64,000 nucleotides of DNA, taken from the IMG/VR virus record IMGVR_UViG_3300038379_000822, positions 1 to 64,000 of that record. One strand, 5' to 3'. Positions 1 through 54,881 of the stretch are shown piece after piece. Made by a program: the position numbers and the translations under genes. The stretch is from a virus. The notes under the pieces were generated by a model. It saw only the letters and a list, made by a program, of their open reading frames with translations, searched no databases and was not told the DNA's origin. Positions within the stretch are counted from its first letter, which is position 1, and the number at the start of each line of letters is the position of its first letter.

Positions 1-132
1 AAATGCTGCAGAACCCCAAGGTTCCCAGCTTCGCGAGCGGTCCCGGAACTGTGACCGGAACCCTCGCGCTCGCGCCATGGAGCTGGCGCACCATCCCCTC
101 TCGGGCCCCGCCTCGGAGGCGTCATGGTTCAT
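1..132. repeat. Left copy of a 132-bp perfect direct repeat (partner 2604..2735) bracketing the Cas12-like/CRISPR cassette; may continue left of the window
   Basis: Base-by-base comparison shows 1..132 is identical to 2604..2735. Identity ends at 133/2736. In minus sense each copy begins at the last base of the final sense codon plus the TGA stop of the gene upstream (stops at 129..131 and 2732..2734). Confidence 0.95.
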
Positions 133-1565
133 TCGGCTGCTTGCTCCCGAAGAGCAGCAGCCAGGTCCTCCTCTTGCTTGAGACGTTTGTTCCAGGTGTC
201 TGGGTTGAAGCCGCTTCGGCGCAGCATGTGCAGTGCTGCGACAAAGTCGGCTTCTCGGTGAAACGAGCATGCGCGGCAATGGAAAATGCCGGTACGCGTG
301 TTGTGTGCGGCCGTGTCCGTAACGTTGCAACGTGGACACGTGCAGGAGATGTACTCCTGTTCGATCTCGACGAGAGCAAGCTCACTCTTCTTGCATGCCC
401 AGTCAATCGCCGCTTTGAGTTGGTAGTACGGGAAGCGCGGAAGAAACCGTCGCACGTTACGATCTTCGTCCGGACCGATGCCGCCATACTGCTCGATCAC
501 GATGGACCCGCATCCTTGCAGTTTGGCGAGCTCGACCACGGCAGACGCTGCCTGCTGGCAGGCCGTCTTCACGACGCGGGCCTCGAGATCTTCGATACGA
601 CTGACCGCATCGAAGCGACGATCACGCCCATGACCTTTCGCGCCATCGCCGCGCTCATACGGCGAAACCATCCCCATGTCACGCCGGCGAGCAGCAAGGG
701 ATTGCTTCTGCGCGCGCAACTTGTTGCCGCGGATGAGCTTCCGGAAGTGGCCTTCGGTCGACATGCAAGTGATGAAGTTGTGCATCCCGCGATGCACAAC
801 CAGGGCCTTCTGCTGGTCGACGTCCTTCGCTGGCGTCTTCGGCGCGAAGACACTGAGCAGCACCATCCACTTCTTGCCGTCCTTCGTCAAGATCTTGGCT
901 CCACCCATCTCGAGCTCGCCGGCAGCGACTTGGCGAAGCAGGCTCCAGTGCGGCCCCTTCGTCGTCATCAGCGCGACCTTGATCTTGCCTTGCTTGCGAC
1001 CAGGGTCCAGCGTCATGGAGAGCACTGGCCGGTTGTCCTCGAGCGTGATGTCGAGCTCCGCGCGTCGGAGCGCGACGGGTGCCCCCTTTCCCATGGAGGG
1101 CAGCCGAGTGCTGCGACGTTCCTTCAGCCAGCGCTGCACCGACTGCTTGGCGATCTGATCCCATGCACTGACGGTACCGCCCGGAACGCCGCCCTCGATG
1201 AGGGCCGCGAACCGCTCCTTCACCTTCGCATCCTTGTGCGTGGTCACCCACTCGAGGAAGCTGTCGACCTCCATCTTGCCGGCCTCGTAACCATTGGGCT
1301 TGCGCCCGGACTGGAGTGCGTGAGCGTACTCGAGCGTCGACGCCTGGATACAGCGATGTGCCACAGCGGCGAGTCCGCGCAGCGTCGACCCGAGCTCATC
1401 CCAGGTGCGGTTGAGAGGCTTCGCGATCTCGCACGTCAGCGTGCGAGCGAGCACCTCTTTGCGCCGCTGCTCTTTCGCTTGCTTGTTGGCGAGACGGCGC
1501 TCCTTACGGATACGTGCCGCCGCCTGGTCTTCGGTCTCTGGCTGTTCCTGGGGTGCGTCGCTCAT
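129..1565 (-). CDS. Compact TnpB/Cas12-like (type V-like) RNA-guided effector candidate, 478 aa, with His258 where the RuvC-I Asp is expected
   Basis: ORF 129..1874 trimmed to ATG 1565 (GAGGAA 5-6 nt upstream); codons upstream of it are translated CRISPR repeats. TnpB/Cas12 layout: WED-like KILTKDGKKWMVLLSVF, then ALVVHRGMHNF at the xxGxDxG position, IVIEQY (Glu358), zinc ribbon CTCPRC...CRAC, READFVAALHML (Asp440). It lies directly downstream of the array on the same strand. Confidence 0.8.
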   Translation of the reverse strand: MSDAPQEQPETEDQAAARIRKERRLANKQAKEQRRKEVLARTLTCEIAKPLNRTWDELGSTLRGLAAVAHRCIQASTLEYAHALQSGRKPNGYEAGKMEVDSFLEWVTTHKDAKVKERFAALIEGGVPGGTVSAWDQIAKQSVQRWLKERRSTRLPSMGKGAPVALRRAELDITLEDNRPVLSMTLDPGRKQGKIKVALMTTKGPHWSLLRQVAAGELEMGGAKILTKDGKKWMVLLSVFAPKTPAKDVDQQKALVVHRGMHNFITCMSTEGHFRKLIRGNKLRAQKQSLAARRRDMGMVSPYERGDGAKGHGRDRRFDAVSRIEDLEARVVKTACQQAASAVVELAKLQGCGSIVIEQYGGIGPDEDRNVRRFLPRFPYYQLKAAIDWACKKSELALVEIEQEYISCTCPRCNVTDTAAHNTRTGIFHCRACSFHREADFVAALHMLRRSGFNPDTWNKRLKQEEDLAAALREQAAE

Positions 1566-1645
1566 TGTTTCCTCTTCGACGAGATCTTCATCGTGCTTCA
1601 CTGTCTCTCCGGCATCCATTGCGGCGAATGGCGCTTGCGCTTCCT

Positions 1646-2487
1646 GCTCCATCGGCTCTCCGTTGGAGCAGGCGTTGCGACGCTTGCGACCAAGCACGGC
1701 ATCGACGTAGCGAGCATGCTCCACCGGCTCTCCGTTGGAGTAGTCGTTGCGACTCCCCCCCCCCACGTACACGAAGGAGGGGCGTGCCACGACGCTCCAC
1801 CGGCTCTCCGTTGGAGTAGTCGTTGCGACCAATGAGCGCCCGACCGGAGGCTGAAGTCCCTTGCATTGCTCCACCGGCTCTCCGTTGGAGTAGTCGTTGC
1901 GACGCGCACCCGAGACTCCCGAGTCGATGGAGATGCTCGCTCCACCGGCTCTCCGTTGGAGTAGTCGTTGCGACTGCCAGGCCGCCTAGTACAGGCAGCG
2001 CCCGTGCTGCAGCTCCACCGGCTCTCCGTTGGAGTAGTCGTTGCGACCTTCCAAGAGCTGTGCCGAGAGCACGCGCTGCAGGTTGCTCCACCGGCTCTCC
2101 GTTGGAGTAGTCGTTGCGACGGGCCTGTCGATGAAGGACATCGACGTGGTGGAGCTGCTCCACCGGCTCTCCGTTGGAGTAGTCGTTGCGACTGCGCCCG
2201 CTGCTCGAGCCGGAGGACCTGTACGCGACGGCGCTCCACCGGCTCTCCGTTGGAGTAGTCGTTGCGACCCAAGAAGGGCTGACCGTGGTGATCGACGAGG
2301 GGGTCGCTCCACCGGCTCTCCGTTGGAGTAGTCGTTGCGACGCCAGCGCTCTGCTTCCGTGGGGTCCTGCGCAAAGAGGCTCCACCGGCTCTCCGTTGGA
2401 GTAGTCGTTGCGACGGTGGTTCGGCTCGCCGGCGAGCAGCGTCCCGTAGACGCTCCACCGGCTCTCCGTTGGAGTAGTCGTTGCGAC
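1646..2487 (-). CRISPR. CRISPR array: 11 identical 36-bp repeats plus one degenerate terminal repeat, 11 spacers of 35-40 bp
   Basis: Plus-strand repeat GCTCCACCGGCTCTCCGTTGGAGTAGTCGTTGCGAC starts at 1718, 1794, 1868, 1939, 2012, 2085, 2157, 2233, 2306, 2379 and 2452. A 3-mismatch copy lies at 1646..1681. All spacers are unique. The degenerate repeat is at the cas-proximal end, so the leader is inferred at 2488+ and transcription on the minus strand (repeat reads GTCGCAACGACTACTCCAACGGAGAGCCGGTGGAGC). Confidence 0.95.
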
Positions 2488-9858: not shown

Positions 9859-9888
9859 CTGCTGGTGCTAGCATGCTAGCACCAGCAG
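9859..9888. promoter_or_regulatory. 30-bp perfect palindrome CTGCTGGTGCTAGCATGCTAGCACCAGCAG (site 2 of the TGCTAGCA motif)
   Basis: Verified base by base. It fills the 43-nt gap between the minus-strand stop at 9890 and the start at 9846. Confidence 0.7.
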
Positions 9889-17161: not shown

Positions 17162-18052
17162 CTAGCATGACGAGGTCGTCTTTCCGTCGTTGGCCAGCTC
17201 GGTGAGCAGCGCCGCGAACCTTTCGCGCATGCCGTCGGGACAGGTTGCGGCGTAGACGACGGAGGCGGCGGCGTTGGCGCCGGAGGCGGCGGAGGCGTCT
17301 GCGTAGGCGTCTGCGTTGGCGGCGTTGGCGGCGTCCGCGCGGGCGGCGGTGACGGCGGCGTTGGCGGCGGCGTTGGCGGCGGCATTGGCGGCGGCGTTGG
17401 CGGCGGCGTTGGCGGCGGCATTGGCGGCGGCGTTGGCGGCGTTGGCGGCGGCGTTGGCGGCGGCGTTGGCGGCGGCATTGGCGGCGGCGTTGGCGGCGGC
17501 GTTGGCGGCGGCGTTGGCGGCGTTGGCGGCGTTGGCGAGGGCGTTGGCGAACGCGTTGGTGGCGCTGGCGGCGCTGGCGGCGCTGGCGGCGCTGGCGGCG
17601 CTGGCGGCGGCAGCGGCGGCAGCGGCGGCAGCGGCGGCAGCGGCGTCGTCGGCGGTCTTACGGTCGACGACCGTGGGCAGCGCCCGCAGTCGCTTGGCAT
17701 CCTGCTCTCGCCCCGCAGCATCCAGCGCCATCGCAGCCGCCACGCGGACCGCGAAATCGACGAGTCGATAGGCGCGTTGCTGTTCAACGGCGCGATCGCG
17801 GCGCGATCCGACCAGTGCGACCGAGACCGGCCCCATGATCCGCGTCCGCGTGGCGTCATCGTGGATTCGATCGTTCAGAAACCGCGCTGCTGCGGCGAGC
17901 AGCGGGCATGCGCACTTTGGATGGTCGCTATGCGGTTCGCCGGCGAGCCACGCCGTTACCTCGAGGGCGCACATGCCCTCCTCATGGGTCTTGTGTGAGC
18001 CGGACGCGATCGTGATGCCCGCGACGCGGGCGAGTAGGTCTTCGCGATTCAT
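17162..18052 (-). CDS. Paralog family P member 1: conserved N-domain (EGMCAxE..AGExHSDxPxCxCP) plus a long Ala/Asn/Ser tandem-repeat region
   Basis: ATG 18052 (MNREDLL...) is preceded by GGAGAA. HEEGMCALEVTAWLAGEPHSDHPKCACPLLAAAARFLND aligns with the ORFs at 18072, 24078, 24985 and 25608. The centre is (AANA)n, (AAS)n and poly-Ala. Confidence 0.75.
   Translation of the reverse strand: MNREDLLARVAGITIASGSHKTHEEGMCALEVTAWLAGEPHSDHPKCACPLLAAAARFLNDRIHDDATRTRIMGPVSVALVGSRRDRAVEQQRAYRLVDFAVRVAAAMALDAAGREQDAKRLRALPTVVDRKTADDAAAAAAAAAAAAAASAASAASAASAASATNAFANALANAANAANAAANAAANAAANAAANAAANAAANAANAAANAAANAAANAAANAAANAAANAAVTAARADAANAANADAYADASAASGANAAASVVYAATCPDGMRERFAALLTELANDGKTTSSC
17355..17645. 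repeat. Coding tandem repeats (12-nt GCGGCGTTGGCG units, then 9-nt GCGCTGGCG x5, then 9-nt CAGCGGCGG x4)
   Basis: Read directly in 17341..17650. They encode ...AANAAANAA..., ASAASAAS and poly-Ala in the minus-frame gene. Confidence 0.9.
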
Positions 18053-18071
18053 AGTTCTCCGTTCGCGGCGA

Positions 18072-18695
18072 TCATGCCGCGTTGGCGAGGCCGATGAGAA
18101 GACCGGCGAGAGCTTCCTGTGCTCGGGGGTCGGCGGCGGCGTCGACCGCGACCGCGACCGAGTAGCCAGTGAGCGGCACGTAGTCGGCTTCGGCGGGCGC
18201 ATGGGCCGCTACCAGCGCAGCGTTTGCGGCGAGGGCGACGCAGGAACGCTCCGCATGCGTGGCAGAGTAGGCCGTCATGCATGCCTTCGCTGCCGACGCG
18301 CTCACCCGTGCCGACGCGGCGTCGACGATCGGCGGGAGTGCGCGCAGCCGGGCAGCTTGTTCGGTGAGGCCGACGGCCTCGAGATCGGCCGGCGCCAGAT
18401 AGCGCACGGCCCAATCGGCCATGATGAAGGCGCGGCGGAGCTCGGTGACATGACCGACACGCGACCCGACCAAGGCTTCGGAGACCGGCCGCATGATGCG
18501 CGTGCGGCGCATGTCGTCACGGATGTCGTCGTTCAGCGGCCGGGCCGCGGCCGCCAGCACCCGATCGGCGGTCTCCGGATGGTCGGAGTGGGGTTCGCCC
18601 GCGAGCACCGCGGCCAGCTCGGTGGCGCAGAGCCCTTGCGCCGGCGAGGCGTGCTTGCCTCGCGTGAGCACCAGGAAAGGTGGTGCGGCAGTCAT
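18072..18695 (-). CDS. Paralog family P member 2 (degenerate Cys motif)
   Basis: ATG 18695 overlaps the upstream stop (ATGA). GLCATELAAVLAGEPHSDHPE...LNDDIRDD..RTRIMRPVSEALVGSR aligns with the family. Ala-rich C-half. Confidence 0.7.
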   Translation of the reverse strand: MTAAPPFLVLTRGKHASPAQGLCATELAAVLAGEPHSDHPETADRVLAAAARPLNDDIRDDMRRTRIMRPVSEALVGSRVGHVTELRRAFIMADWAVRYLAPADLEAVGLTEQAARLRALPPIVDAASARVSASAAKACMTAYSATHAERSCVALAANAALVAAHAPAEADYVPLTGYSVAVAVDAAADPRAQEALAGLLIGLANAA

Positions 18696-19057
18696 GAGGC
18701 CGTCTCCGCGCGATCGTAGCCCGCGCCTGGTACCGTCGCGAGGATCCACCGGATCGTCGCGCCTTCGGGGAGCGAAGTGGCGCCTTCCGGGAGCCGCGCG
18801 CCGTTGTATTGAGCGACGAGCAGTTCGTCGCCGGCACAGAGCTCCGTTCCGACGCGGCGCATGGGCACGTCGGCGCCAAGCAGGGACGAAACGAGCAGCG
18901 CGGTGTCGGCGTGGCCGACGCAGGATAGCCACCCTTCTTCGGCCGCATAGGCCCGCGCCTCGTCCAGCGAGAGCGAGCGGAACCCTACTTTGACGCCGTC
19001 CGCCAAGGCCGTGGCGGACAGCATGCCGCACGAGAACGCGTTTCCAATATACTTCAT
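18692..19057 (-). CDS. DUF1874 (STIV B116/YddF)-like protein
   Basis: MKYIGNAFSCGML...SCVGHADTALLVSSLLG...RLPEGATSLPEGATI fits my recollection of the DUF1874 pattern. ATGA overlap at 19054..19057. Confidence 0.55.
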   Translation of the reverse strand: MKYIGNAFSCGMLSATALADGVKVGFRSLSLDEARAYAAEEGWLSCVGHADTALLVSSLLGADVPMRRVGTELCAGDELLVAQYNGARLPEGATSLPEGATIRWILATVPGAGYDRAETAS

Positions 19058-19713
19058 GGCTTCTCCGGGGGCGATGGGGTGAGCGCGAGCGCGAGAATGC
19101 GCACGACGCGTAGATCTTGTTCGGCGGGCCAGCATTCGTCTGGCGGCCATTCTGCGTTGAGAGCGAAGAGCGGCGTCGAGTCGCCGGTGGCGACGAGGAC
19201 GTTCACGGCGTCCTCGATCGCTGCTCGCGTGTCTTCCGACGGCGCGAACCCGATGCGCCGTCCACGAAGCCGCTCACGCAGGGCGGCGTGGCCACCGAGT
19301 GCGAGAAAGAACGTGTCGAGCGCGACAGCGAGGGAGCAGACGAAGCAATCCGTGTCCGCGCAGTCGCGGATCCAGCGCTCGCACGTCTCAACGCTCGCTC
19401 CACCGAAGTGTTCCGGTCGGCATCGTATCGCTCGGATGTCGGGCTGATCGCAGAGGGCGACGAACGCGCCGCTCTGCTGCGTGAGGCGGCGCTTCGCGAC
19501 GGATAGTTGGACCGGATGCGCGCCCCGCTCACCGCAGACGGCGTGCTGGATGAGCGCATCGAGGTAGTCGGTGGCCGACCATGCCAGGAGCGCGGGCCAG
19601 TCTTCTCCTGGCAGGTAGTGAGCCCGCACCCCATGAAGGGACGGGGTCGGCTGCCGCGGGGTAGGCGCCATGAACGGCACCGTCGCGGGTTGTTCGGGGG
19701 CCATGGGGTTCAC
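19054..19713 (-). CDS. Hypothetical protein (219 aa, GTG start)
   Basis: GTG 19713 overlaps the upstream stop (GTGA). Cys/Trp-containing, balanced composition. Confidence 0.6.
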   Translation of the reverse strand: MNPMAPEQPATVPFMAPTPRQPTPSLHGVRAHYLPGEDWPALLAWSATDYLDALIQHAVCGERGAHPVQLSVAKRRLTQQSGAFVALCDQPDIRAIRCRPEHFGGASVETCERWIRDCADTDCFVCSLAVALDTFFLALGGHAALRERLRGRRIGFAPSEDTRAAIEDAVNVLVATGDSTPLFALNAEWPPDECWPAEQDLRVVRILALALTPSPPEKP

Positions 19714-20042
19714 GCTGGGGAGCGGCCTTCGCGCCGCCGCGCTTGCTGGAGAGCGGCCGCGGAACGGTCGAGGAGGGCCCTAGCGAGATCGAGCTCTCGC
19801 CACTTCGCTTCCCGCTCGTACGGGCACTCGCACTCGGGATCGCTCCCGAAGTAGCGGACAGCGAGGCGGTAGCCGTCCTCGGCTTCCAGGTAGGCCTGCT
19901 CGGCCTCGATCAGATGGGAGGATGGCGGGGGCCCGAGGAGACTCAGGGGTCGGCGGCGGGGGCGGTGAGCCATGCCTCCCAGCCGGGGCGGAACGGCCCC
20001 CCCCGGGGGGGTGGGGGAACGCTCGAGCGCGTACGTTGCCAT
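19710..20042 (-). CDS. Hypothetical protein (110 aa), first gene of the leftward block
   Basis: ATG 20042 lies inside inverted repeat IR1. Internal starts are possible. Confidence 0.5.
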   Translation of the reverse strand: MATYALERSPTPPGGAVPPRLGGMAHRPRRRPLSLLGPPPSSHLIEAEQAYLEAEDGYRLAVRYFGSDPECECPYEREAKWRELDLARALLDRSAAALQQARRREGRSPA

Positions 20043-20062
20043 AATGACGATTATGGCAACGT
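20033..20062. promoter_or_regulatory. IR1: ACGTTGCCATAAT-GACG-ATTATGGCAACGT, operator-like inverted repeat containing the leftward start codon
   Basis: 13-bp perfect arms with a 4-bp spacer, in the AT-rich gap between the divergent blocks. The minus-strand ATG (20042..20040) sits in an arm. Confidence 0.65.
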
Positions 20063-20073
20063 GTACAGGCTAG

Positions 20074-20103
20074 ACGTTTCCATAAGCTTCATTATGGAAA
20101 CGT
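20074..20103. promoter_or_regulatory. IR2: ACGTTTCCATAA-GCTTCA-TTATGGAAACGT, operator-like inverted repeat containing the rightward start codon
   Basis: 12-bp perfect arms with a 6-bp spacer. The plus-strand ATG 20094 sits in the right arm. Near-identical to IR1 read on the other strand. Confidence 0.65.
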
Positions 20104-20966
20104 TGCGCCCGATCGCCTTGAGCCCAGCCGTTCCGCCCCGGCTGGCTGCCATGACCACGACCCCACGCCCCTACGCCGTCCAGGCCCGCCACGAGGCGGC
20201 GCCGCAACCCCTCACCTCATGGTGCGGCCCGATGCTCGAAGCGGGCGCCGCCCGCTTCTCGGGTCGCCTCATCCCCGAGGCCGACGACCTGCAAGACCGT
20301 GCGATCCGCGCCGCCTCACGGAAGGTGGAGCGCTACGAGAGCATTGAGGCCGCCCTCGCCGCGGCCTGCGGCCCCCGGCCGGCCCTGCCCGAGGGCGATC
20401 TCGCCCTCAAGCAGAGCTACGAGACCGCCCGGGACGCGGCGCGCGAGGCACGCCTGGCCTACGCCACGGCGCCCAGCGCTGAGCGCGAGACCGCGCGGAC
20501 CGCGATGCACGCCGCGGAGCGCGGCGAAGACGCCTCCCTGGCGGCGTGGATGAAGTCTCGCCGCGCCGAGGCGCGGGGCCAGATCGCCGCGATCGACGCC
20601 GAAGCCGTCGCGGCCGGGAAGGCGACGCGCGCCGCCGAGCGCGCCGAAGCCCGCGCCCAGCGGCGCCTCACGGCCAGCGAGGCTCGTCTCGCGGCCAAGC
20701 TCGCGAAGCAGCAAGCGGCCGCCGAAGCGCGCCGCGCTGCCGCGAAGGCCGAGCTCGACGCCGTGCGCGAACGCGCCGCGGCGCTCCCAACGGTATCGGA
20801 CGAGGCCCGCCGCGAGGCGTGCCTCATCATCCGCGAGATCCGCACCAGCGCGCATGCGGATGCCGCGGCCGAGCTCATTAACGGGCTCATGCCCGAGGGC
20901 TGGGATCCGAACGTCGAGAAGCTCTTCGATCAGAAGACGAAGCAGGTCGCGCACCGCGCGGCGTGA
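20094..20966 (+). CDS. Ala/Arg/Glu-rich coiled-coil protein (290 aa), first gene of the rightward block
   Basis: ATG 20094 (METLRPIAL...) is the first start after the AT-rich switch. An alternative ATG lies at 20151. Long AEARxxA heptad-like segment. Confidence 0.65.
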   Translation: METLRPIALSPAVPPRLAAMTTTPRPYAVQARHEAAPQPLTSWCGPMLEAGAARFSGRLIPEADDLQDRAIRAASRKVERYESIEAALAAACGPRPALPEGDLALKQSYETARDAAREARLAYATAPSAERETARTAMHAAERGEDASLAAWMKSRRAEARGQIAAIDAEAVAAGKATRAAERAEARAQRRLTASEARLAAKLAKQQAAAEARRAAAKAELDAVRERAAALPTVSDEARREACLIIREIRTSAHADAAAELINGLMPEGWDPNVEKLFDQKTKQVAHRAA

Positions 20967-45126: not shown

Positions 45127-45572
45127 GCAGCACGTCGTGGTCATCGCTAGTGAAGCAGGTGAGTCAGCCAGATGACGCATTGCGCGTGAGCGTCTCGGGC
45201 GAGTTCCGGTTCCACGTCTTTCGCGAAGGTCTGATCGTTGAGGATCAGCACTTCGCCTGCGAAGTGCACTTCTACACGAGCTGCTTCGCGGGGCACAGCT
45301 GCTCCCAGCAGACTAGCATCAGCGAGTGGTTCTACTGTTCGCTCTGGCGCGAACTCTACCCGGAGCCGCTTGCTGTGGGGCGTCAGACGCTGCCTGGGTA
45401 CCGGCTTCGCGACAGCGACATGCTGTTGCAGCTTGCGCAAGGCATTGCCGCACGGCCGGAGGATGTGACGTTCCTGAACGTATGCCTCATCGGGGATCCG
45501 AGTTTCACGCGTGCATTCAAAGAACTCGTTTATGACTGCAGGCGCGAGAACCGGCACGCTCAGCGCACCTGA
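45123..45572 (+). CDS. Hypothetical protein (149 aa), last gene of the rightward block
   Basis: ATGA overlap. Its 3' end overlaps the convergent giant ORF by 13 nt. Confidence 0.6.
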   Translation: MSSTSWSSLVKQVSQPDDALRVSVSGEFRFHVFREGLIVEDQHFACEVHFYTSCFAGHSCSQQTSISEWFYCSLWRELYPEPLAVGRQTLPGYRLRDSDMLLQLAQGIAARPEDVTFLNVCLIGDPSFTRAFKELVYDCRRENRHAQRT

Positions 45573-48500
45573 AGCGCGGCCATCACACGGAACGGCGACG
45601 GCAGCGCGCTCGTCATCTTGACCGCTGCATCCTGCATCGCCGTGAGCGCCGACTCCGTGACGTAGACGTGCGTGTCGGACGGGTTCTTGGTGATGCGCCC
45701 ATCGAAGCCAATCCGGAACAGCTTCGTGCGCGCAGCGCTATCCGCACGATGCTTCAGGAGCACGCGGCGTCCCGGGTTCTCAACCATCTTCTTGCGACGC
45801 GACGCGCGCTCACCCCCTGCGCTGGCGATGACGATGTCCGTCTCTGCGGACCGGCGACGCTCCGCCCGCACGGCTTCGGCTGCCGACCTGCTGATGCGTA
45901 GCGACATGTTCCCGGTCTCCGGGTCGAGCAGCTCCATCACCGACGCTTCTTCCGCGGAGACGCGCGAGATCTCGGCGGCGAAGCTCAGACTGACGGCCAT
46001 CTGCTGAGCGGCGGCCTCGAGCTGAGCCGGAGTAGCTTCCTCGGTCGTGACCTCCTCGCCAGTGAGCAGCTTGCGCACGATGGCTGCCTGCGACGTGAGC
46101 CATAACCGGCGAGCGTTGGCGCCAGCGACGATGGTTCCTCCGATCTCGCGAGCTTGGCGCTCCATCTGCTCGGGCGCAGGGACGACCGTGGCCAGGTACT
46201 GGAGCATCACGCCCCACACGAGCTTGGTGTTGTCGCCCTTGTCCGCGCGGATGCCCTTGCTCTCGCGTCCGGTGGCGACGACGTACTCCCACATCGCTCG
46301 GCATGCGCGCCGCAGGACGAGTTGCGGGAACGGAACATCAAACCGCGCACGAAATCGCTGCTGGGCGCTCTCATCGAGCGTAATCGTGTGCTTCTTCTGA
46401 TCGATCGCGAAGAACGCGGCGTCGAAGAGCGGGCTGTCCGCGAAGATGTTCACCGGACCGGGGTCGCCCTCTGCGAGAGGCACGTAACGATTCAGGTAGG
46501 CGATCACGAGCGGTCGGATATCGCGCCCGGTCTCGCGGCCGCCGAGGTCGGCGTCTTCCGGAAGCGGCAACGCCTTGGCCTCAAAGCCTGCGCGCAGGAG
46601 AGCCACGTTCTCCTTGGTCGCTGCAAGCTGCTCGCGGTACTCGCGCTTCCCCGTGATCCCGTAGCGGCTGACGATGCGCTCGGTGACCTCGGCATCGCCC
46701 GCGAAGAACTGCTTGCTCAGCGCGTTGAGCTCCGCGAGCTTTCGTTGCTCCTCGAGGTAGAAGGTCAGCTCCTTCTCGAGCAGCTCTCGCCGCTTCTCAA
46801 CGCTCTGCTCGGCGAAGGCGACGTTCTTGCGGCGGGTCTCCTTGCGTTCGGAGCTGAGACGCTGCCCCGTGACGCTGGCCAGCCAGCTCGTGAACCGCTT
46901 CCATTCGTCGGCGCTGCGCTTGTAGATGCTGTGCACCGGATCGTCTTCCGCGAACCATACCGGCAGCTCTTCCGCAAACCCCACGCCCGAGCTCGCCGCA
47001 CCGATGAATGCTTCCGCGAAGGCCTCATCGTCCTTGCGATCTTCGACCCCGCGCCCGCGCTTCATCTCCGTCATGTAGCGAGCCGTCACCAAGAAGGTGT
47101 GGGCGTTGAGCTCGAACCACTTGGCGAGCCAGTCGTCGCTGTGTGCCCGCAGTGCCGCGCCGCGCTCGATGGCGGCCTCGTAGGGCATCCACGTGGGCGT
47201 CGGCCGCTTCCGCTTGCGGAAGTACTCGAGCAGCGTCCCGGTGATGTGCGAGAAGGCCCCGAACCATCGCATGAGCCCATACGTGCGACTCGGTTGAGCG
47301 CTGCCTGCCCAGTCGGCGTAGAGCCGATCGAGCGCGTTCAGCAGCGGCGTGTCCTCGGTATCGGGCCAGATCTGCGCTGGGGCAAGCACGGGGAGCGCCG
47401 GGATCTTGATCTTCTTCTTCTCGGTCGAGAAGACCGGATCAGCGAGCACGATGCCGTCATCGGAGACGTGGCTCGCTCGCGCAAAGAAGGGGAGCAGCGT
47501 ATCGACCCCGATGCCGTAGTTCCGGGGCCATGGATCGTAGAACTCGGCCAAGAACGAGTGCTTGTTGTTGTTCAGCTGGTAGAGCTTCTCGCCGCGCGAC
47601 TCGTCGATGACTTCAGCACCAGGGCGCGCGGTCTTGCTCGTCTTGGTCCATTCGATGCGCTCCGCATCATCGGTTCCGAACATGTCGTAAGCCCAGTCCG
47701 GCGACCCGGCACTCACGTCATCGACCGGGCTATGCGGGACCTCGGCCTGCCGGTGCTCGCCGGCATCGAGATCGACAGCCACGATGCGGTCATCGCGATC
47801 GACGATGGCCACACCGCCGGGTCCGGGCTCGACATCGACGGCGCGGAGGGGAACGTCCTCGCCGATCGTGGGCACCACAGGGACCTCCCAGGGGGGAGGG
47901 GCCTCGGCCACGGGCGCGGGCGGAGCGACTGGAGGAGGAGGCTCTGGACGGCGCGGAGCGGCCGCAGCAGGCGACTGCTGCACTTCGACCGCGTAGGTGT
48001 CGATCACCTGCGGCGAAGGCTTTCTGGGAGCGCTTGGCGGCGGCGAAGCCGGTTGCGCTGGAGCAGTCGAGATGCCGGCCCGGGCCGCAATCTTCTCGAT
48101 GTAGGACAGGATCTCGGTCTGACCGGTGAGGCGTTCGGCCGCGCCAATCTCCTCGAGGTAGCCCTCGGTGGTGGTCACCGACTCATGCCCCAAGATCGCC
48201 TGCACCTCCCGCAAGGGCTTGCCGGCCTCGATCATGGCCGTCGCGGCAAAGTGCCGAAGGGCGTGCGGATGCAGTAGCTTCAGCTCATCGTCCGTGAGCC
48301 CAGCATGCAGTCCGAGCCGTCGAAGCCACGCGCGACTCGCGGGGCGCGTCATGCTTCGCCGGTAGTTGAGCTCGGCGTTCGGCTTGAACTCCTGGTACTT
48401 GCCAGCAGCATTCGCTCCCCAGAGCCGCAGCGGAGGGAAGAGTGGAGCATCGGCGTTCACGACGAGTTCGCGTAGGCGTTCGTCCGCGCGAGGGCGGCGC

Positions 48501-49669
48501 GAATCCACTTCCAATGCCGCCTGAAACTGCAGGAGCGCTTGGTAGGCGACCGAGGGATACGGCAGGATCATGCGCTTCCCGCCCTTGCGCAGCAGCAGCA
48601 CACGCGGCTCCGTGCCCGTCGCATCGAGCCAACCAGGCCACTGAACCCCTTGCCGAGGCGGTGGCTCCGCTCGGCGCAGATTCAGCGTCTCGCTGATGCG
48701 CGAGCCGAGCAGGATCAGGAAGAGGAACATCGCCCGATCACGCAGGCCTTCGGTCGACTTCACGGTATCGAGGTAGGCCAAGATCTTCGGCACGATCTCG
48801 GGTGGCATGCGCTTCATGGCGCGTCGCGACTTCCGTTCACTGGAGAAGCCGCTCGAGAGCCGGCTCTTCAGTCCATCGAAGATGTCGTACTTCACGAGCG
48901 GCGTATCGGGTCCGGTGTTCTCTCCGCGCCCGAGCACCTTCCAGAAACTGGAGAGCGCCGACACCCGCTGCAGGATGGATGCGCGACTCAGGCCGCGCGG
49001 CTGCGGGATCATGTACGTGTAGATGTCGCGGATGGGCTTCCCATCGATGACCGAGGTGGAGAAGATCGCCATGCCGCGATGCTGAGCACGCAACTGCGCG
49101 ATGGTCGGAGTGCGGATGAGCAGACGATGCAGCACCATGCGCCCGAGTCGTGCGGCGAGCTGCTCACCGTTCAGCGCATCGTCGGCTTTGCGCTCCGCGT
49201 CCGTGAACATCCCCTCGATGTCCCGTTGCGTGGCGCGCCCTCCCAGCTTGGTAACGATCTCGAAGACGCGTCGGCGGATGGGATCGTCGCTGTCTTTCGC
49301 GCGCTCGGCGACCAGAGAGAAGGGTCGGTTCGCGAGCCAGTTGACGTACTCCTCGGCATCGGAGCGAAGCACCTGGTGTGGCGCCACCGGGCGTCCATAC
49401 TTGACCGCCAGCCACTCGAAGAACTCCGACAGCGCGCGCGAGTAGGCGATCTTGGTGTGGGGCGAGCGCTGACCGATGTAGCTCTGCCAGGTGTCGCCGC
49501 TGCTGCTCGAGGGCTGCCCGAAGAACGCGTCGAGAGCGGCAAGGCACCGCCGGGCTTCGTCCCGGTTGCCGAAGGCGTCGACCCAGGCCTTCACCGATGC
49601 CTCGTCGCGTTTCCCGCGGAAGATGGCGAGCTCGGGGCGGTTCTTGGTCAGCGCGGTCGATCGGGGCAT
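45560..49669 (-). CDS. Giant tyrosine recombinase/integrase fusion (1369 aa): N-terminal ~520-aa integrase, Pro/Ala linker, ~800-aa C-terminal region of unknown function
   Basis: Integrase signatures: SAM-like AYSRALSEFFEWL...AEEYVNWL, LLGSRISETLNLR, HPHALRHFAATAMIEAG and ILGHESVTTTEGYL. The single uninterrupted ORF has balanced composition throughout. Confidence 0.85.
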   Translation of the reverse strand: MPRSTALTKNRPELAIFRGKRDEASVKAWVDAFGNRDEARRCLAALDAFFGQPSSSSGDTWQSYIGQRSPHTKIAYSRALSEFFEWLAVKYGRPVAPHQVLRSDAEEYVNWLANRPFSLVAERAKDSDDPIRRRVFEIVTKLGGRATQRDIEGMFTDAERKADDALNGEQLAARLGRMVLHRLLIRTPTIAQLRAQHRGMAIFSTSVIDGKPIRDIYTYMIPQPRGLSRASILQRVSALSSFWKVLGRGENTGPDTPLVKYDIFDGLKSRLSSGFSSERKSRRAMKRMPPEIVPKILAYLDTVKSTEGLRDRAMFLFLILLGSRISETLNLRRAEPPPRQGVQWPGWLDATGTEPRVLLLRKGGKRMILPYPSVAYQALLQFQAALEVDSRRPRADERLRELVVNADAPLFPPLRLWGANAAGKYQEFKPNAELNYRRSMTRPASRAWLRRLGLHAGLTDDELKLLHPHALRHFAATAMIEAGKPLREVQAILGHESVTTTEGYLEEIGAAERLTGQTEILSYIEKIAARAGISTAPAQPASPPPSAPRKPSPQVIDTYAVEVQQSPAAAAPRRPEPPPPVAPPAPVAEAPPPWEVPVVPTIGEDVPLRAVDVEPGPGGVAIVDRDDRIVAVDLDAGEHRQAEVPHSPVDDVSAGSPDWAYDMFGTDDAERIEWTKTSKTARPGAEVIDESRGEKLYQLNNNKHSFLAEFYDPWPRNYGIGVDTLLPFFARASHVSDDGIVLADPVFSTEKKKIKIPALPVLAPAQIWPDTEDTPLLNALDRLYADWAGSAQPSRTYGLMRWFGAFSHITGTLLEYFRKRKRPTPTWMPYEAAIERGAALRAHSDDWLAKWFELNAHTFLVTARYMTEMKRGRGVEDRKDDEAFAEAFIGAASSGVGFAEELPVWFAEDDPVHSIYKRSADEWKRFTSWLASVTGQRLSSERKETRRKNVAFAEQSVEKRRELLEKELTFYLEEQRKLAELNALSKQFFAGDAEVTERIVSRYGITGKREYREQLAATKENVALLRAGFEAKALPLPEDADLGGRETGRDIRPLVIAYLNRYVPLAEGDPGPVNIFADSPLFDAAFFAIDQKKHTITLDESAQQRFRARFDVPFPQLVLRRACRAMWEYVVATGRESKGIRADKGDNTKLVWGVMLQYLATVVPAPEQMERQAREIGGTIVAGANARRLWLTSQAAIVRKLLTGEEVTTEEATPAQLEAAAQQMAVSLSFAAEISRVSAEEASVMELLDPETGNMSLRISRSAAEAVRAERRRSAETDIVIASAGGERASRRKKMVENPGRRVLLKHRADSAARTKLFRIGFDGRITKNPSDTHVYVTESALTAMQDAAVKMTSALPSPFRVMAALQVR

Positions 49670-49673
49670 CGTG

Positions 49674-49685
49674 TTATGGAAACGT
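49674..49685 (-). promoter_or_regulatory. Single copy of the IR2 arm (ACGTTTCCATAA in minus sense), 4 nt upstream of the recombinase ATG
   Basis: Plus-strand TTATGGAAACGT at 49674..49685 is identical to the right arm of IR2 (20092..20103). Confidence 0.5.
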
Positions 49686-49737: not shown

Positions 49738-50316
49738 ATGCGCCGTGAAGTGCCGATGACCGACGACCAGATCAACCTCTACCGACTCTTCGGCATCGAG
49801 GCGTCCACCATCCTCCCGAACCGCCTCTACATGGGCTCCATCCCGCCCAAGGGGCCTCTCGTCGAACGCGCTGGCTTCACGCATCTGGTGCTCTGCGCCG
49901 AGGAGTACCAACCCCGGAGCACCGAGTTCTCGCCAGGTCTCAAGGTTCTGCACGTTCCGATGCGTGACGACGGGCAGCCGCTTGCGGCCAACGCCGAACG
50001 GCAGATCGAACACGCTGCTGCCGCCGTCGCTGACTACATCGTGCGGGGAGCGCGCGTGCTCGTCACGTGCGCCGCCGGACGCAACCGCTCCGGCATCATC
50101 TGCGCCTTCACGCTCGCTCGAGCCACTCGGATCTCGCCCTGGCGTGCCGGGCTGCGCATCCGTGGCCTGCGTGTGACGCCTGATGGGGCACCCGCGATGA
50201 CGAATCCCGCCTTCAATGCCTTCGCGCTGCGACGCTCCACCCACGATGTCGACGCGGTGCGTTCGTCGCGACGTGCACGACGTGCTCATGACTTCGGCGC
50301 CATCCTACCTAGATAG
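49738..50316 (+). CDS. Cys-based dual-specificity/tyrosine protein phosphatase
   Basis: Active-site loop VLVTCAAGRNRSG (CX5R-S). Upstream VPMRDDG (candidate general-acid loop). Alternative ATG 49756. Confidence 0.8.
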   Translation: MRREVPMTDDQINLYRLFGIEASTILPNRLYMGSIPPKGPLVERAGFTHLVLCAEEYQPRSTEFSPGLKVLHVPMRDDGQPLAANAERQIEHAAAAVADYIVRGARVLVTCAAGRNRSGIICAFTLARATRISPWRAGLRIRGLRVTPDGAPAMTNPAFNAFALRRSTHDVDAVRSSRRARRAHDFGAILPR

Positions 50317-50960
50317 TACCGCGTCTCGTCGTCCCACATCTCGCGCGCAGCGATGAGCTTCATCGATCCTGACTTCGCGAACTTCTGCTCCATCGTTTCG
50401 ACGACCAGCCCGCGCAGAATCCCCGTCACAGCGATGTTGAGCGCCTGTGCTCGGCGCCGCAGCGCGCGATAGGCCCCCGCCGTGACCAGCGCGCGCTCCA
50501 CGTATGGGTACTTCGTCGTGCCGTCGACCCGGTGAACACCTGGATCAATCGCGGAGTACTCCCGCCCGCGATACACCCAGCCCTCCGTCATGTGGCGCGG
50601 CTCCCACGTGCCCATCAAGTACAGGTGCACGATGCTTCGCAGGAGCACACTGCCGTCAACACCGCGATGCATGGCGTACGCCTTCCACTCATCGAAGATC
50701 ACGCGTGGAAACCTGATCTCGACCTGCGGATGCTTGCTCCCAGCCTTCTTGTCACCCAACACTGGTTGCAGTCCCGCTTCCTGGGCTCGGCGTTTCCGGA
50801 GTTCGAATGCATCGCGCAGCGCATCGGGCGCCACGCCCAGACGTTGAGCCAACACCACGAGCTGTTGCTCTTCCAACACTCGCGCAGTGACGGCCGACAC
50901 GCTCAGCTTGTCGATCAACCAGGCTCGGAATCCGTCGAGTGCGTCGCGCCTACCGCCCAT
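50286..50960 (-). CDS. Hypothetical protein (224 aa)
   Basis: Minus-strand ORF whose 3' end overlaps the convergent phosphatase gene by 31 nt. Confidence 0.65.
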   Translation of the reverse strand: MGGRRDALDGFRAWLIDKLSVSAVTARVLEEQQLVVLAQRLGVAPDALRDAFELRKRRAQEAGLQPVLGDKKAGSKHPQVEIRFPRVIFDEWKAYAMHRGVDGSVLLRSIVHLYLMGTWEPRHMTEGWVYRGREYSAIDPGVHRVDGTTKYPYVERALVTAGAYRALRRRAQALNIAVTGILRGLVVETMEQKFAKSGSMKLIAAREMWDDETRYYLGRMAPKS

Positions 50961-54841: not shown

Positions 54842-54881
54842 GTGCTACCCGAAAGTGCTAGCACCGTCAAGGTGCTAGCAC
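54842..54881. promoter_or_regulatory. Cluster of GTGCTAGCAC palindromes (site 5): two perfect units plus one degenerate
   Basis: GTGCTAGCAC occurs at 54855..54864 and 54872..54881, with GTGCTAC at 54842..54848. The cluster fills the 49-nt gap between minus-strand genes. Confidence 0.55.

What the first reader, a model, noticed from the sequence alone, without database searches (positions are those of the whole stretch)
20033..20103. Divergent switch: two mirror-image 30-bp inverted repeats, each containing the start codon of one divergent operon
The only AT-rich segment (23 of 60 nt G+C over 20041..20100) separates the leftward and rightward blocks. It holds IR1 (20033..20062) and IR2 (20074..20103). 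Read in the sense of its own gene, each is ACGTT(G/T)CCATAA-N4/6-(A)TTATGG(C/A)AACGT, with the ATG in the 3' arm (MAT... leftward, MET... rightward). The start codons are only 52 nt apart. The same element was therefore duplicated in inverted orientation, and it supplies both the operator-like symmetry and the first codons of both genes. It could be a lysis/lysogeny-type bistable switch operated by one dimeric regulator. At the RNA level, the hairpins could sequester both start codons.
Basis: seen in the sequence. Interest (0 to 1): 0.72.

Follow-up and report, generated by a model that had tools for sequence, protein, structure and literature searches.

The report
Paired dif-like recombinase sites, divergent region
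The two 30-bp palindromes are real and conserved, and they look like paired binding sites, built like the bacterial chromosome-resolution site dif, for a giant XerD-like recombinase encoded by this roughly 110-140 kb virus-like element, not like a lambda-style switch carrying the two start codons.

Summary
IR1 (20033-20062) and IR2 (20074-20103) are perfect palindromes in the lowest-GC 60 nt of the window.

Five exact GTTKCCATAA arms occur in 64 kb. Four lie in the palindromes. The fifth lies 4 nt upstream of a 1369-aa tyrosine recombinase gene.

Four relatives carry the same layout: two arm-6/7-arm palindromes, an 11-bp spacer, and one lone arm at the recombinase gene. Arm sequences co-vary within each element, while the flanking genes are unrelated.

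The geometry (11-6-11, CATAAT-N4-ATTATG) matches dif. The family consensus arm TTATGGTAACG nearly equals the XerD arm of the predicted Anaeromyxobacter dif. The recombinase keeps the R-K-H-R-H-Y catalytic residues, and XerD is its closest solved relative. An unrelated phage pair carries the same palindrome just downstream of an ordinary integrase gene.

Best reading (about 0.55): these are paired core-type sites for the element's own recombinase, probably doubling as operators.

The ATG inside the arms comes with the TTATG motif. It is open and in frame in only 3 of 8 outward arms. The real starts are probably 19973 and 20151. Nothing supports a lysis/lysogeny switch. No binding, cleavage or transcript data exist.

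The parts
20033..20062 (.). Site A (IR1): dif-like palindrome ACGTTGCCATAA-TGACGA-TTATGGCAACGT, readable as 12-6-12 or 13-4-13
   Evidence: It is among the best arm matches in the window to 6 of 7 published dif sequences.
20063..20073 (.). 11-bp spacer between the two sites (GTACAGGCTAG). Its length is the same in the window, L002, L003 and L068.
20074..20103 (.). Site B (IR2): dif-like palindrome ACGTTTCCATAA-GCTTCA-TTATGGAAACGT (12-6-12)
19971..19997 (.). Left copy of the outer inverted repeat. It ends in the in-frame ATG at 19973-19971 (- strand), the probable true start of the leftward gene.
   Evidence: I2, 27 nt, 89% complementary. Analogous element-specific outer repeats occur in L002, L068 and L073.
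20127..20153 (.). Right copy of the outer inverted repeat. It ends in the ATG at 20151-20153, the probable true start of the rightward gene. It contains a 7-bp GC-rich stem (20124-20145).
49674..49685 (+). Lone arm TTATGGAAACGT, identical to the arms of site B. It lies 4 nt from the recombinase start codon. It is inverted relative to the same arm in every relative where it was found.
45560..49669 (-). Gene for a 1369-aa tyrosine recombinase. The N-terminal 560 aa are Xer-like, with R324, K362, H469, R472, H495 and Y504. The C-terminal 800 aa have an unknown fold.
19710..20042 (-). Leftward ORF (110 aa from 20042, or 87 aa from 19973). It has no family match.
20094..20966 (+). Rightward ORF (290 aa from 20094, or 271 aa from 20151). 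It has no homologue in any database searched.
50286..50960 (-). Conserved 224-aa protein with two beta-alpha-alpha (ribbon-helix-helix-like) units. It is the alternative candidate binder.
49738..50316 (+). Dual-specificity phosphatase gene. It diverges from the recombinase gene across the lone arm, and this pairing is conserved in 18 loci.

Best explanation
The two palindromes are a pair of core-type binding sites for the element's own giant XerD-like tyrosine recombinase (45560..49669). Each site has two inverted 11-12-bp arms around a non-conserved 6-bp centre, as in dif.

Inferred mechanism:
- One recombinase monomer binds each arm, so a dimer occupies each palindrome.
- The site centres are 41 bp apart, about four helical turns. 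The two dimers therefore sit on one face of the DNA.
- Strand exchange would occur across a 6-bp centre, between identical sites on two copies of the circular genome. That would resolve multimers or cyclise the genome, as in Cre/loxP or Xer/dif. Alternatively it would act between the element and a dif-like host site.
- The arms contain a TAnnnT -10-like hexamer and sit at the divergence point of the two gene blocks. Occupancy would therefore probably also repress both divergent transcription units.
- The lone arm over the -10 and start of the recombinase gene would give autoregulation.

Shown here: the site anatomy, its conservation, the within-element co-variation of arms, the resemblance to dif, and the intact catalytic residues.

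Inferred only: who binds the sites, that crossover happens there, and any effect on transcription.
For: 1. Architecture conserved despite gene turnover.
- The window, L002, L003 and L068 all have two arm-6/7-arm palindromes separated by 11 bp in a divergent intergenic region. L073 has a degenerate version.
- The genes flanking the sites show no detectable homology between the window, L002 and L003.

2. Link to the recombinase gene.
- An 11-nt motif TTATGGTAACG lies 2-8 nt upstream of the recombinase start in 17 non-identical loci.
- Information content is 0.9-2.0 bits over exactly those 11 nt, against mostly 0-0.7 bits in the flanks. Four further loci show it.

3. Co-variation within elements. 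All arms of one element share that element's variant: GGAAACG/GGCAACG in the window, GACAATG/GCCAATG in L002, GGTAACG in L003.

4. Resemblance to dif.
- dif is 11-6-11 (PMC5357621).
- E. coli dif is GGTGCG-CATAAT-GTAT-ATTATG-TTAAAT (PMC3025954). IR1 is CGTTGC-CATAAT-GACG-ATTATG-GCAACG.
- The predicted Anaeromyxobacter dif ends ATTATGGTAACT (PMC3025954 supplement).
- IR1 and IR2 are the top or tied-top arm matches in the window to 6 of 7 dif sequences.

5. The enzyme.
- It matches PF00589.
- Its best solved relatives are XerD, XerA, XerC and XerH.
- R324, K362, H469, R472, H495 and Y504 are invariant across 18 homologues.

6. Independent association. The unrelated viral contigs L067 and L066 carry GTTACCATAA-N6-TTATGGTAAC 12 nt and about 170 nt downstream of a 364-aa tyrosine recombinase gene. 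Their arms are conserved and their centres differ.

7. Central spacers are unconserved everywhere. That is expected where the centre only has to match its recombination partner.

8. A circular genome. The 136,226-bp relative has an exact 123-bp end overlap.
Against: - There is no binding, cleavage or recombination evidence of any kind.
- The sites lie 7-30 kb from the recombinase gene. In XerS, XerH, Cre and the TnpI system the site is adjacent to the gene (XerS and XerH per PMC5357621; Cre and TnpI from memory).
- Identity to any single dif is only 14-16 of 22 arm positions. Chance positions in the window reach 13-15.
- A lone arm is a weak substrate for a tyrosine recombinase monomer.
- In the window the lone arm is inverted relative to all relatives. 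That is awkward for a fixed promoter-occlusion geometry.
- The arm overlaps a plausible sigma-70-type promoter in relatives: CTAGGAA/CTGGAA, then 17-18 nt, then TATGGT. Part of its conservation could therefore be promoter constraint.
- Another conserved protein with possible DNA-binding folds exists.
- Two full sites 41 bp apart have no exact precedent that I know of among Xer-type systems.
Confidence: 0.55

Rival explanations
1. The palindromes are operators for a dedicated, non-recombinase regulator of the element. The conserved 224-aa protein (50286..50960), with two ribbon-helix-helix-like units, is the obvious candidate. It would repress both divergent units and the recombinase promoter. 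No recombination would occur at the sites.
For: - The 224-aa protein has relatives in 22 of the related loci examined, most of them near the recombinase gene.
- Its alignment and predicted secondary structure show two beta-alpha-alpha units.
- Its best solved match is the small protein YiiF, at E = 0.52. I recall YiiF as a ribbon-helix-helix protein.
- A tandem ribbon-helix-helix protein could bind a lone arm as a monomer.
- The arms overlap -10-like hexamers.
Against: - The YiiF match is not significant, and the structure model is unusable (pLDDT 37.7).
- Ribbon-helix-helix sites are usually shorter repeats. The 11-6-11 geometry with CATAAT-N4-ATTATG is specifically Xer-like.
- The same palindrome lies next to an integrase gene in L066 and L067. 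No relative of the 224-aa protein was found in the parts of those contigs that are held.
Confidence: 0.2
2. The sites are substrates for the host's Xer recombinases. They would work like plasmid cer/psi sites or the attachment sites of elements that integrate at dif. The element's own recombinase would be unrelated to them.
For: - The family consensus arm matches the XerD arm of a predicted myxobacterial dif at 10 of 11 positions.
- The element is 65% G+C, compatible with such hosts.
- Mobile elements are known to exploit dif/Xer (PMC5357621).
Against: - Both arms are XerD-like. A XerC/XerD heterodimer needs two different arms.
- The lone arm is conserved at the element's own recombinase gene in more than 20 loci. 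The arms co-vary within each element. Both point to an element-encoded binder.
- The element has its own Xer-like enzyme with intact catalytic residues.
Confidence: 0.1
3. It is a lambda-like bistable switch run by one dimeric regulator encoded next to it. The start codons of both operons lie in the 3' arms, and mRNA hairpins sequester them.
For: - In the window both arm ATGs open long in-frame ORFs.
- CATAAT or CATAAG lies 7 nt upstream of each arm ATG, the spacing of a leaderless mRNA (my reading).
- The hairpins are stable: -14 to -18 kcal/mol.
Against: - Only 3 of 8 outward arms in four elements have an open, in-frame ATG. One arm in L003 has no ATG.
- Called starts in the relatives lie 55-200 nt away.
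- The outer inverted repeats end in other ATGs in the window and in L073.
- The flanking genes have no regulator domain and are not conserved.
- Stem pairing is broken in the second palindromes of L003, L068 and L073.
Confidence: 0.07
4. The region is the replication origin of the element, and the palindromes are initiator-binding sites.
For: - Genes diverge from this point.
- It is the lowest-GC stretch of the window.
- Cumulative GC skew begins to rise at about 17 kb.
Against: - There are no iteron array, no extended AT-rich unwinding element and no adjacent initiator gene. The low-GC part is the palindromes themselves.
- An origin does not explain the lone arm at the recombinase gene or the dif-like geometry.
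- The skew change tracks coding strand.
Confidence: 0.05

Closest known systems
Single-recombinase Xer systems: XerS/difSL, XerH/difH and archaeal XerA/dif
   Same: One tyrosine recombinase acts on a site made of two inverted arms of about 11 bp around a short centre. The archaeal dif is 11-6-11 (PMC5357621). XerD, XerA and XerH are the closest solved relatives of the catalytic domain. The conserved inner ATAA/TTAT is shared with dif.
   Different: The enzyme is 1369 aa, with an 800-aa extension of unknown fold. It sits on a viral genome, not a chromosome. There are two sites in tandem rather than one, and they lie 7-30 kb from the gene rather than beside it. A lone arm sits at the gene's start. 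Any dependence on FtsK is unknown.
Recombination sites that double as operators in divergent promoter regions: Tn3/gamma-delta res between tnpA and tnpR, the RK2 ParA resolution site, and the TnpI site of Tn4430/Tn5401 with core repeats plus single accessory motifs (all from memory)
   Same: There are several recombinase-binding motifs with variable spacers in a divergent intergenic region. A recombinase could plausibly both recombine and repress there. Single, non-palindromic copies of the motif would serve accessory or regulatory roles.
   Different: Tn3 and RK2 use serine recombinases. In all these systems the site adjoins the recombinase gene. Here the flanking genes are unrelated ORFans, and no function has been tested.
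Cre/loxP of phage-plasmid P1 (from memory)
   Same: A large circular phage-type genome carries its own tyrosine recombinase and a palindromic arm-spacer-arm site. That site is used for cyclisation and dimer resolution.
   Different: loxP is 13-8-13, single, and lies next to cre. Cre is 343 aa. There is no sequence relationship beyond the superfamily.
Elements that integrate at dif using host Xer, such as CTX-phi with its two inverted dif-like sites
   Same: A mobile element carries paired dif-like sequences (PMC5357621).
   Different: Those elements lack a recombinase and use host XerCD. Their sites keep distinct XerC and XerD arms. This element encodes its own enzyme, and its sites are XerD-arm palindromes.
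Lambda OR (CI/Cro) divergent switch
   Same: Multiple dyad-symmetric sites lie between divergent transcription units.
   Different: There are no helix-turn-helix repressor genes flanking the sites, and the flanking genes are not conserved. The site geometry and sequence are Xer-like.

Membership tests
Xer/dif-type tyrosine-recombinase core site | Two inverted arms of about 11 bp separated by a 6-8 bp central region | tested here: met
   IR1 and IR2 read as 12-6-12. The relatives have 6- or 7-bp centres. The dif geometry is taken from PMC5357621.
Xer/dif-type tyrosine-recombinase core site | Conserved inner palindromic positions (dif positions 7-12 and 17-22, CATAAT...ATTATG) and a XerD-arm-like outer sequence | tested here: met
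   IR1 has CATAAT-GACG-ATTATG against CATAAT-GTAT-ATTATG in E. coli dif. The family consensus arm TTATGGTAACG compares with TTATGGTAACT in the predicted Anaeromyxobacter dif. The arm score is at the top of the window but only modestly above chance.
Xer/dif-type tyrosine-recombinase core site | A cognate tyrosine recombinase with the R-K-H-R-H/W-Y catalytic residues | tested here: met
   The protein matches PF00589. XerD is the best solved match at E = 5e-13. R324, K362, H469, R472, H495 and Y504 are invariant.
Xer/dif-type tyrosine-recombinase core site | The recombinase binds the arms and cleaves at the arm/centre boundaries; recombination occurs between two copies | not testable with these tools
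   This needs gel-shift, suicide-substrate and in vivo resolution assays.
Xer/dif-type tyrosine-recombinase core site | For single-recombinase systems: the site lies next to the recombinase gene | tested here: not met
   The full sites lie 30 kb (window), 7.5 kb (L002), 13.7 kb (L003) and about 14.6 kb (L068/L030) from the gene. Only a lone arm adjoins it.
Lambda-type lysis/lysogeny switch | The sites are flanked by divergent genes for DNA-binding repressors (CI-like and Cro-like) | tested here: not met
   19710..20042 and 20094..20966 have no Pfam or PHROG match. The next genes on either side give nothing beyond a STIV B116-like match (18692..19150) and one weak sub-threshold hit. The flanking genes are not homologous between elements.
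Lambda-type lysis/lysogeny switch | Recognisable divergent promoters overlapped by the operators | tested here: inconclusive
   The scan finds no sigma-70 consensus promoter in 19700-20400. Only -10-like hexamers are present in the arms.
Elements that integrate at dif by exploiting host Xer | No recombinase of their own; a site with distinct XerC and XerD arms | tested here: not met
   The element encodes its own recombinase. Both arms of each site are the same.
Telomere-resolvase (protelomerase) target site | A palindrome that is perfect through its centre, plus a protelomerase-family enzyme | tested here: not met
   The centres TGACGA and GCTTCA are not palindromic. The enzyme matches the ordinary integrase family only. 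The 136-kb relative assembles as a circle.
Intrinsic terminator or RNA hairpin | A stem followed by a T-run, or stem pairing maintained by compensatory change | tested here: not met
   The scan finds no terminator. The second palindromes of L003, L068 and L073 break pairing but keep arm-like sequence.

The most novel reading that the evidence does not exclude
A previously undescribed family of giant (1100-1600 aa) XerD-like recombinases exists in uncultivated viral genomes of about 115-140 kb. It would use a mirror-symmetric pair of dif-mimicking sites as a combined recombination locus and master operator. One enzyme would then resolve or integrate the genome, gate both divergent early gene blocks, and throttle its own promoter through a lone arm. 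Because the arms copy a host-type XerD arm, the enzyme might also act on, or compete at, the host chromosome's dif.
Probability: 0.25. Interest if true: 0.7.

Novelty: new variant of a known kind. Interest (0 to 1): 0.55.

Why it matters
If the assignment is right, it defines the DNA target of an uncharacterised family of very large tyrosine recombinases. That family is found in large environmental viral genomes: 64 homologues in the protein database and at least 7 IMG/VR genomes of 61-140 kb.

It gives a short, testable site of 30 bp, with natural specificity variants in different elements. That is the kind of recombinase-site pair that becomes a genome-engineering tool.

It would also be an example of a virus copying the host's dif arm. 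Finally, it corrects the gene starts on both sides of the region.

Tried and rejected
Searches that led nowhere:
- Near-identity DNA search of 12-32 kb, and a protein search with the recombinase, against deposited phage genomes: no match.
- The window-specific palindrome in IMG/VR: no match.
- Relatives of the two flanking gene products in IMG/VR: none. The big protein database returned only the rightward gene itself, over-called as 407 aa.
- Rfam: nothing in the window.
- The tRNA-Val call at 19171-19253 is 83 nt, lies inside an ORF and is not seen by Rfam, so I treat it as false.
- The promoter and terminator scan found nothing.
- Genome collection: only three true relatives, binned to Pirellulales, Elusimicrobia and Pseudomonadota. 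The taxonomy is inconsistent, so no host can be assigned.
- The structure model of the recombinase's C-terminal 806 aa is confident (pLDDT 74.6, pTM 0.75), but no PDB fold matches at E <= 0.001.
- The structure model of the 224-aa protein from 3 sequences is too poor to search with (pLDDT 37.7).
- Pfam on genes next to the sites in L068 gave only a TnpB-like transposase.

Ideas rejected:
- ECF-type GGAAC...CGT promoters: the spacing is wrong.
- Inversion of the segment between the two sites: 41 bp is too short to synapse.
- A -35 box in the 11-bp spacer: it is not consistent across elements.
- A dif-like hit at 49339: it lacks the ATAA/TTAT core and is a chance match within coding sequence.

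Full report
**Observation**

The sequence is as described.
- IR1 (20033-20062) is ACGTTGCCATAAT-GACG-ATTATGGCAACGT.
- IR2 (20074-20103) is ACGTTTCCATAA-GCTTCA-TTATGGAAACGT.
- Both are perfect palindromes, 41 bp start to start. They are also mirror images of each other: 33-nt arms, 85% complementary.
- 20041-20100 holds 23 of 60 G+C and is the lowest-GC 60-nt stretch of the 64 kb.
- The ATGs at 20042 (- strand) and 20094 (+ strand) open ORFs of 110 and 290 aa.

Chance is excluded.
- The 12-mer arm with up to 2 mismatches occurs 10 times against 2.25 expected.
- GTTKCCATAA occurs five times exactly against 1.2 expected.

- An outer inverted repeat, 19971-19997 / 20127-20153, is 27 nt long and 89% complementary. 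Each copy ends in a second, in-frame ATG.
- A fifth exact arm lies at 49674-49685.

**Context**

The window is 65% G+C. Genes run leftward from 19.7 kb and rightward from 20.1 kb.

Recognisable genes are these:
- a TnpB-like protein and an ISL3 transposase
- C5 and N6 DNA methyltransferases
- a MoxR ATPase with a VWA partner
- a STIV B116-like protein
- thymidylate synthase
- glycosyltransferases
- a DnaJ-domain protein
- a dual-specificity phosphatase

At 45560..49669 (- strand) lies a 1369-aa protein whose N-terminal 560 aa form a tyrosine recombinase.
- It matches PF00589.
- Its best solved relatives are XerD, XerA, XerC and XerH.
- R324, K362, H469, R472, H495 and Y504 are invariant in 18 homologues.

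The fifth arm sits 4 nt upstream of this gene's ATG.

**The family**

The recombinase has 64 homologues of 1100-1600 aa. Many are on contigs of 60-140 kb. At least seven of these contigs are in IMG/VR.

One of them, 136,226 bp long, has an exact 123-bp end overlap. It therefore assembles as a circle.

Synteny around the recombinase is conserved: the phosphatase, a 224-aa protein, glycosyltransferases and DnaJ.

No cultured host is known. The three MAG hits have inconsistent taxonomy.

**Comparative anatomy of the sites**

Where the divergent region is available, the layout recurs: [arm-6/7-arm]-11 bp-[arm-6/7-arm].
- Window: ACGTTGCCATAA TGACGA TTATGGCAACGT / GTACAGGCTAG / ACGTTTCCATAA GCTTCA TTATGGAAACGT
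- L002: GCATTGTCATAA GCAACG TTATGCCAATGA / CTACCGCATAC / ACGTTGTCATAA GGTTTC TTATGACAATGT
- L003: GCGTTACCATAA GGAGGG TTATGGTAACGA / CCCAGCGCAAC / ACGTTACCACAA CGTAAGA TTACGGTAACGC
- L068: ACGTTACCATAA TACAAAC CTATGGACACGA / ACAGGGCTATG / ACGTTACCATAA CGTCAC TTATGGTAACGA
- L073 has a more degenerate version.

The pattern across elements is consistent.
- Arms are conserved, centres are not, and the 11-bp spacer length is fixed.
- In L003 and L068 one site is perfect and the other is degraded.
- The genes on either side show no detectable homology between the window, L002 and L003.

**The lone arm**

In 17 non-identical loci an 11-nt motif with consensus TTATGGTAACG lies 2-8 nt upstream of the recombinase start.
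- Information content is 0.9-2.0 bits across exactly those 11 positions. The flanks are at mostly 0-0.7 bits.
- Four more IMG/VR genomes show the same motif.

Within each element the lone arm carries that element's palindrome variant.
- Window: GGAAACG
- L002: GACAATG
- L003: GGTAACG

This within-element co-variation across five sites argues for one element-encoded binder.

In many relatives a CTAGGAA or CTGGAA box lies 17-18 nt upstream of the TATGGT inside the arm. The arm therefore overlaps a plausible -10 element.

The window is the only case where the lone arm is inverted. I cannot explain that.

**Resemblance to dif**

- dif consists of two 11-bp arms around a 6-bp centre (PMC5357621).
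- E. coli dif is GGTGCG-CATAAT-GTAT-ATTATG-TTAAAT, and F. alni dif is CACGCC-GATAAT-GCAC-ATTATG-TCAAGT (PMC3025954).
- IR1 is CGTTGC-CATAAT-GACG-ATTATG-GCAACG.
- The predicted dif of Anaeromyxobacter dehalogenans is ACGTCCGATAATATGGATTATGGTAACT (supplement of PMC3025954). Its XerD arm equals the family consensus arm at 10 of 11 positions.
- Scanning every 28-mer of the window against seven dif sequences puts IR1 and IR2 first or tied first for six of them.
- The margin is small: 14-16 of 22 arm positions, against 13-15 for the best chance positions. This is a resemblance, not proof.
- Both arms are XerD-like. That fits a homodimeric enzyme rather than XerC plus XerD.

**Independent support**

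A scan of IMG/VR for GTTACCATAA-N6-TTATGGTAAC returned three contigs.
- One is the 136-kb relative.
- The other two, L066 and L067, are related to each other at about 71% nucleotide identity. They share only distant (about 26% identity) recombinase-superfamily similarity with this family.
- They carry the palindrome about 170 nt and 12 nt downstream of a 364-aa tyrosine recombinase gene. Their arms are identical and their centres differ.
- The palindrome is not followed by a T-run, so it is not an intrinsic terminator.

**Start codons**

TTATG is part of the arm, so an ATG comes with it automatically. Of eight outward-facing arms in four elements, three are open and in frame with the downstream gene. 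Those are both arms in the window and the right arm in L068. The others hit a stop within 4-27 codons, or have no ATG at all. This is my reading.

- Called starts in L002 and L003 lie 55-200 nt from the sites. Several have Shine-Dalgarno-like sequences.
- In the window and in L073 the outer inverted repeats end in the flanking ATGs.
- I therefore favour 19973 and 20151 as the true starts, at about 65-70%.
- The outer repeats differ between elements but match left to right within each element. They contain GC-rich stems and a (C/T)GT(T/C)CC motif. Their role is unexplained.

**Mechanism**

Best supported: the sites are paired core-type sites for the element's recombinase. One is probably the crossover site and the other accessory. 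They lie at the divergence of the two gene blocks, so occupancy would probably also repress both. The lone arm would provide autoregulation.

This logic is known from the Tn3 res site, the RK2 resolution site, the TnpI sites of Tn4430 and Tn5401, and Cre/loxP. I cite those from memory.

Shown: the anatomy, the conservation, the co-variation, the likeness to dif and the intact enzyme.
Inferred: binding, crossover and regulation.

**Rivals**

- A separate regulator. The conserved 224-aa protein has two beta-alpha-alpha units, but the evidence is weak.
- Host Xer.
- A replication origin.

**Dead ends**

- The recombinase's C-terminal 806 aa model confidently but match no solved fold.
- No homologues exist for the flanking genes.

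**Verdict**

This is a real, conserved element and a new variant of a known kind: a Xer/dif-like recombination site in a promoter region. It is attached to an undescribed giant-recombinase family. Interest is moderate to good.

Noticed in passing
window 9859-9888 and 54855-54881: A second palindrome family is built on GTGCTAGCAC. The copies are CTGCTGGTGCTAGCATGCTAGCACCAGCAG (a perfect 30-mer) and GTGCTAGCACCGTCAAGGTGCTAGCAC. Both lie in short intergenic gaps on the leftward gene blocks. They may be sites for another regulator, or hairpins.
   Followed up: no
window 45560-47980 (- strand; recombinase residues 564-1369): The 800-aa C-terminal extension of the recombinase is conserved across the family. 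It models with good confidence (pLDDT 74.6, pTM 0.75). No match in the PDB reaches E <= 0.001.
   Followed up: partly
window 49674-49685: The lone arm is inverted in this element compared with every relative where it was found. Here it points toward the phosphatase gene rather than the recombinase gene. No second arm is detectable on either side.
   Followed up: partly
window 17162-18202 and 18072-19031 (- strand): Two adjacent ORFs, overlapping by about 130 nt, encode paralogous proteins that share a '...LAGEPHSDHP...RTRIM.PVS.ALVGSR' core. The first carries a long Ala/Asn repeat (ANAAANAAANAA...). Neither has a family match.
   Followed up: no
window 19171-19253 (+ strand): ARAGORN calls an 83-nt tRNA-Val (CAC) inside the ORF 19054..19713. 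Rfam finds no tRNA there, so it is probably a false positive.
   Followed up: partly
window 19971-19997 / 20127-20153; also L002:2420-2475 / 2547-2600, L068 and L073:820-850 / 925-975: Outer inverted repeats flank the paired sites. They are element-specific but match left to right within each element. They contain a (C/T)GT(T/C)CC motif and GC-rich stems. In the window they give both ORFs the shared peptide AVPPRL(A/G)(A/G)M. Whether the signal is in DNA, RNA or protein is unknown.
   Followed up: partly
window 50286-50960 (- strand): A 224-aa protein is conserved in 22 related loci. It has two ribbon-helix-helix-like beta-alpha-alpha units and no Pfam or PHROG family.
   Followed up: partly
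window 42139-43590 (- strand) and 129-1874 (- strand): An ISL3-family transposase interrupts the rightward gene block, and the matching Logan contig ends next to it. A TnpB-like gene is also present. The relative L068 has a TnpB-like gene too.
   Followed up: no
L067:4409-4434 and L066:971-996: Viral contigs unrelated to this family carry the same arm sequence as a single palindrome just downstream of a 364-aa tyrosine recombinase gene. L067 also has a second, XerC/D-like recombinase gene immediately upstream.
   Followed up: partly
L078:1-123 and L068:14581-14703: The 136,226-bp IMG/VR relative has an exact 123-bp overlap between its two ends. This indicates a complete circular or terminally redundant genome.
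   Followed up: yes
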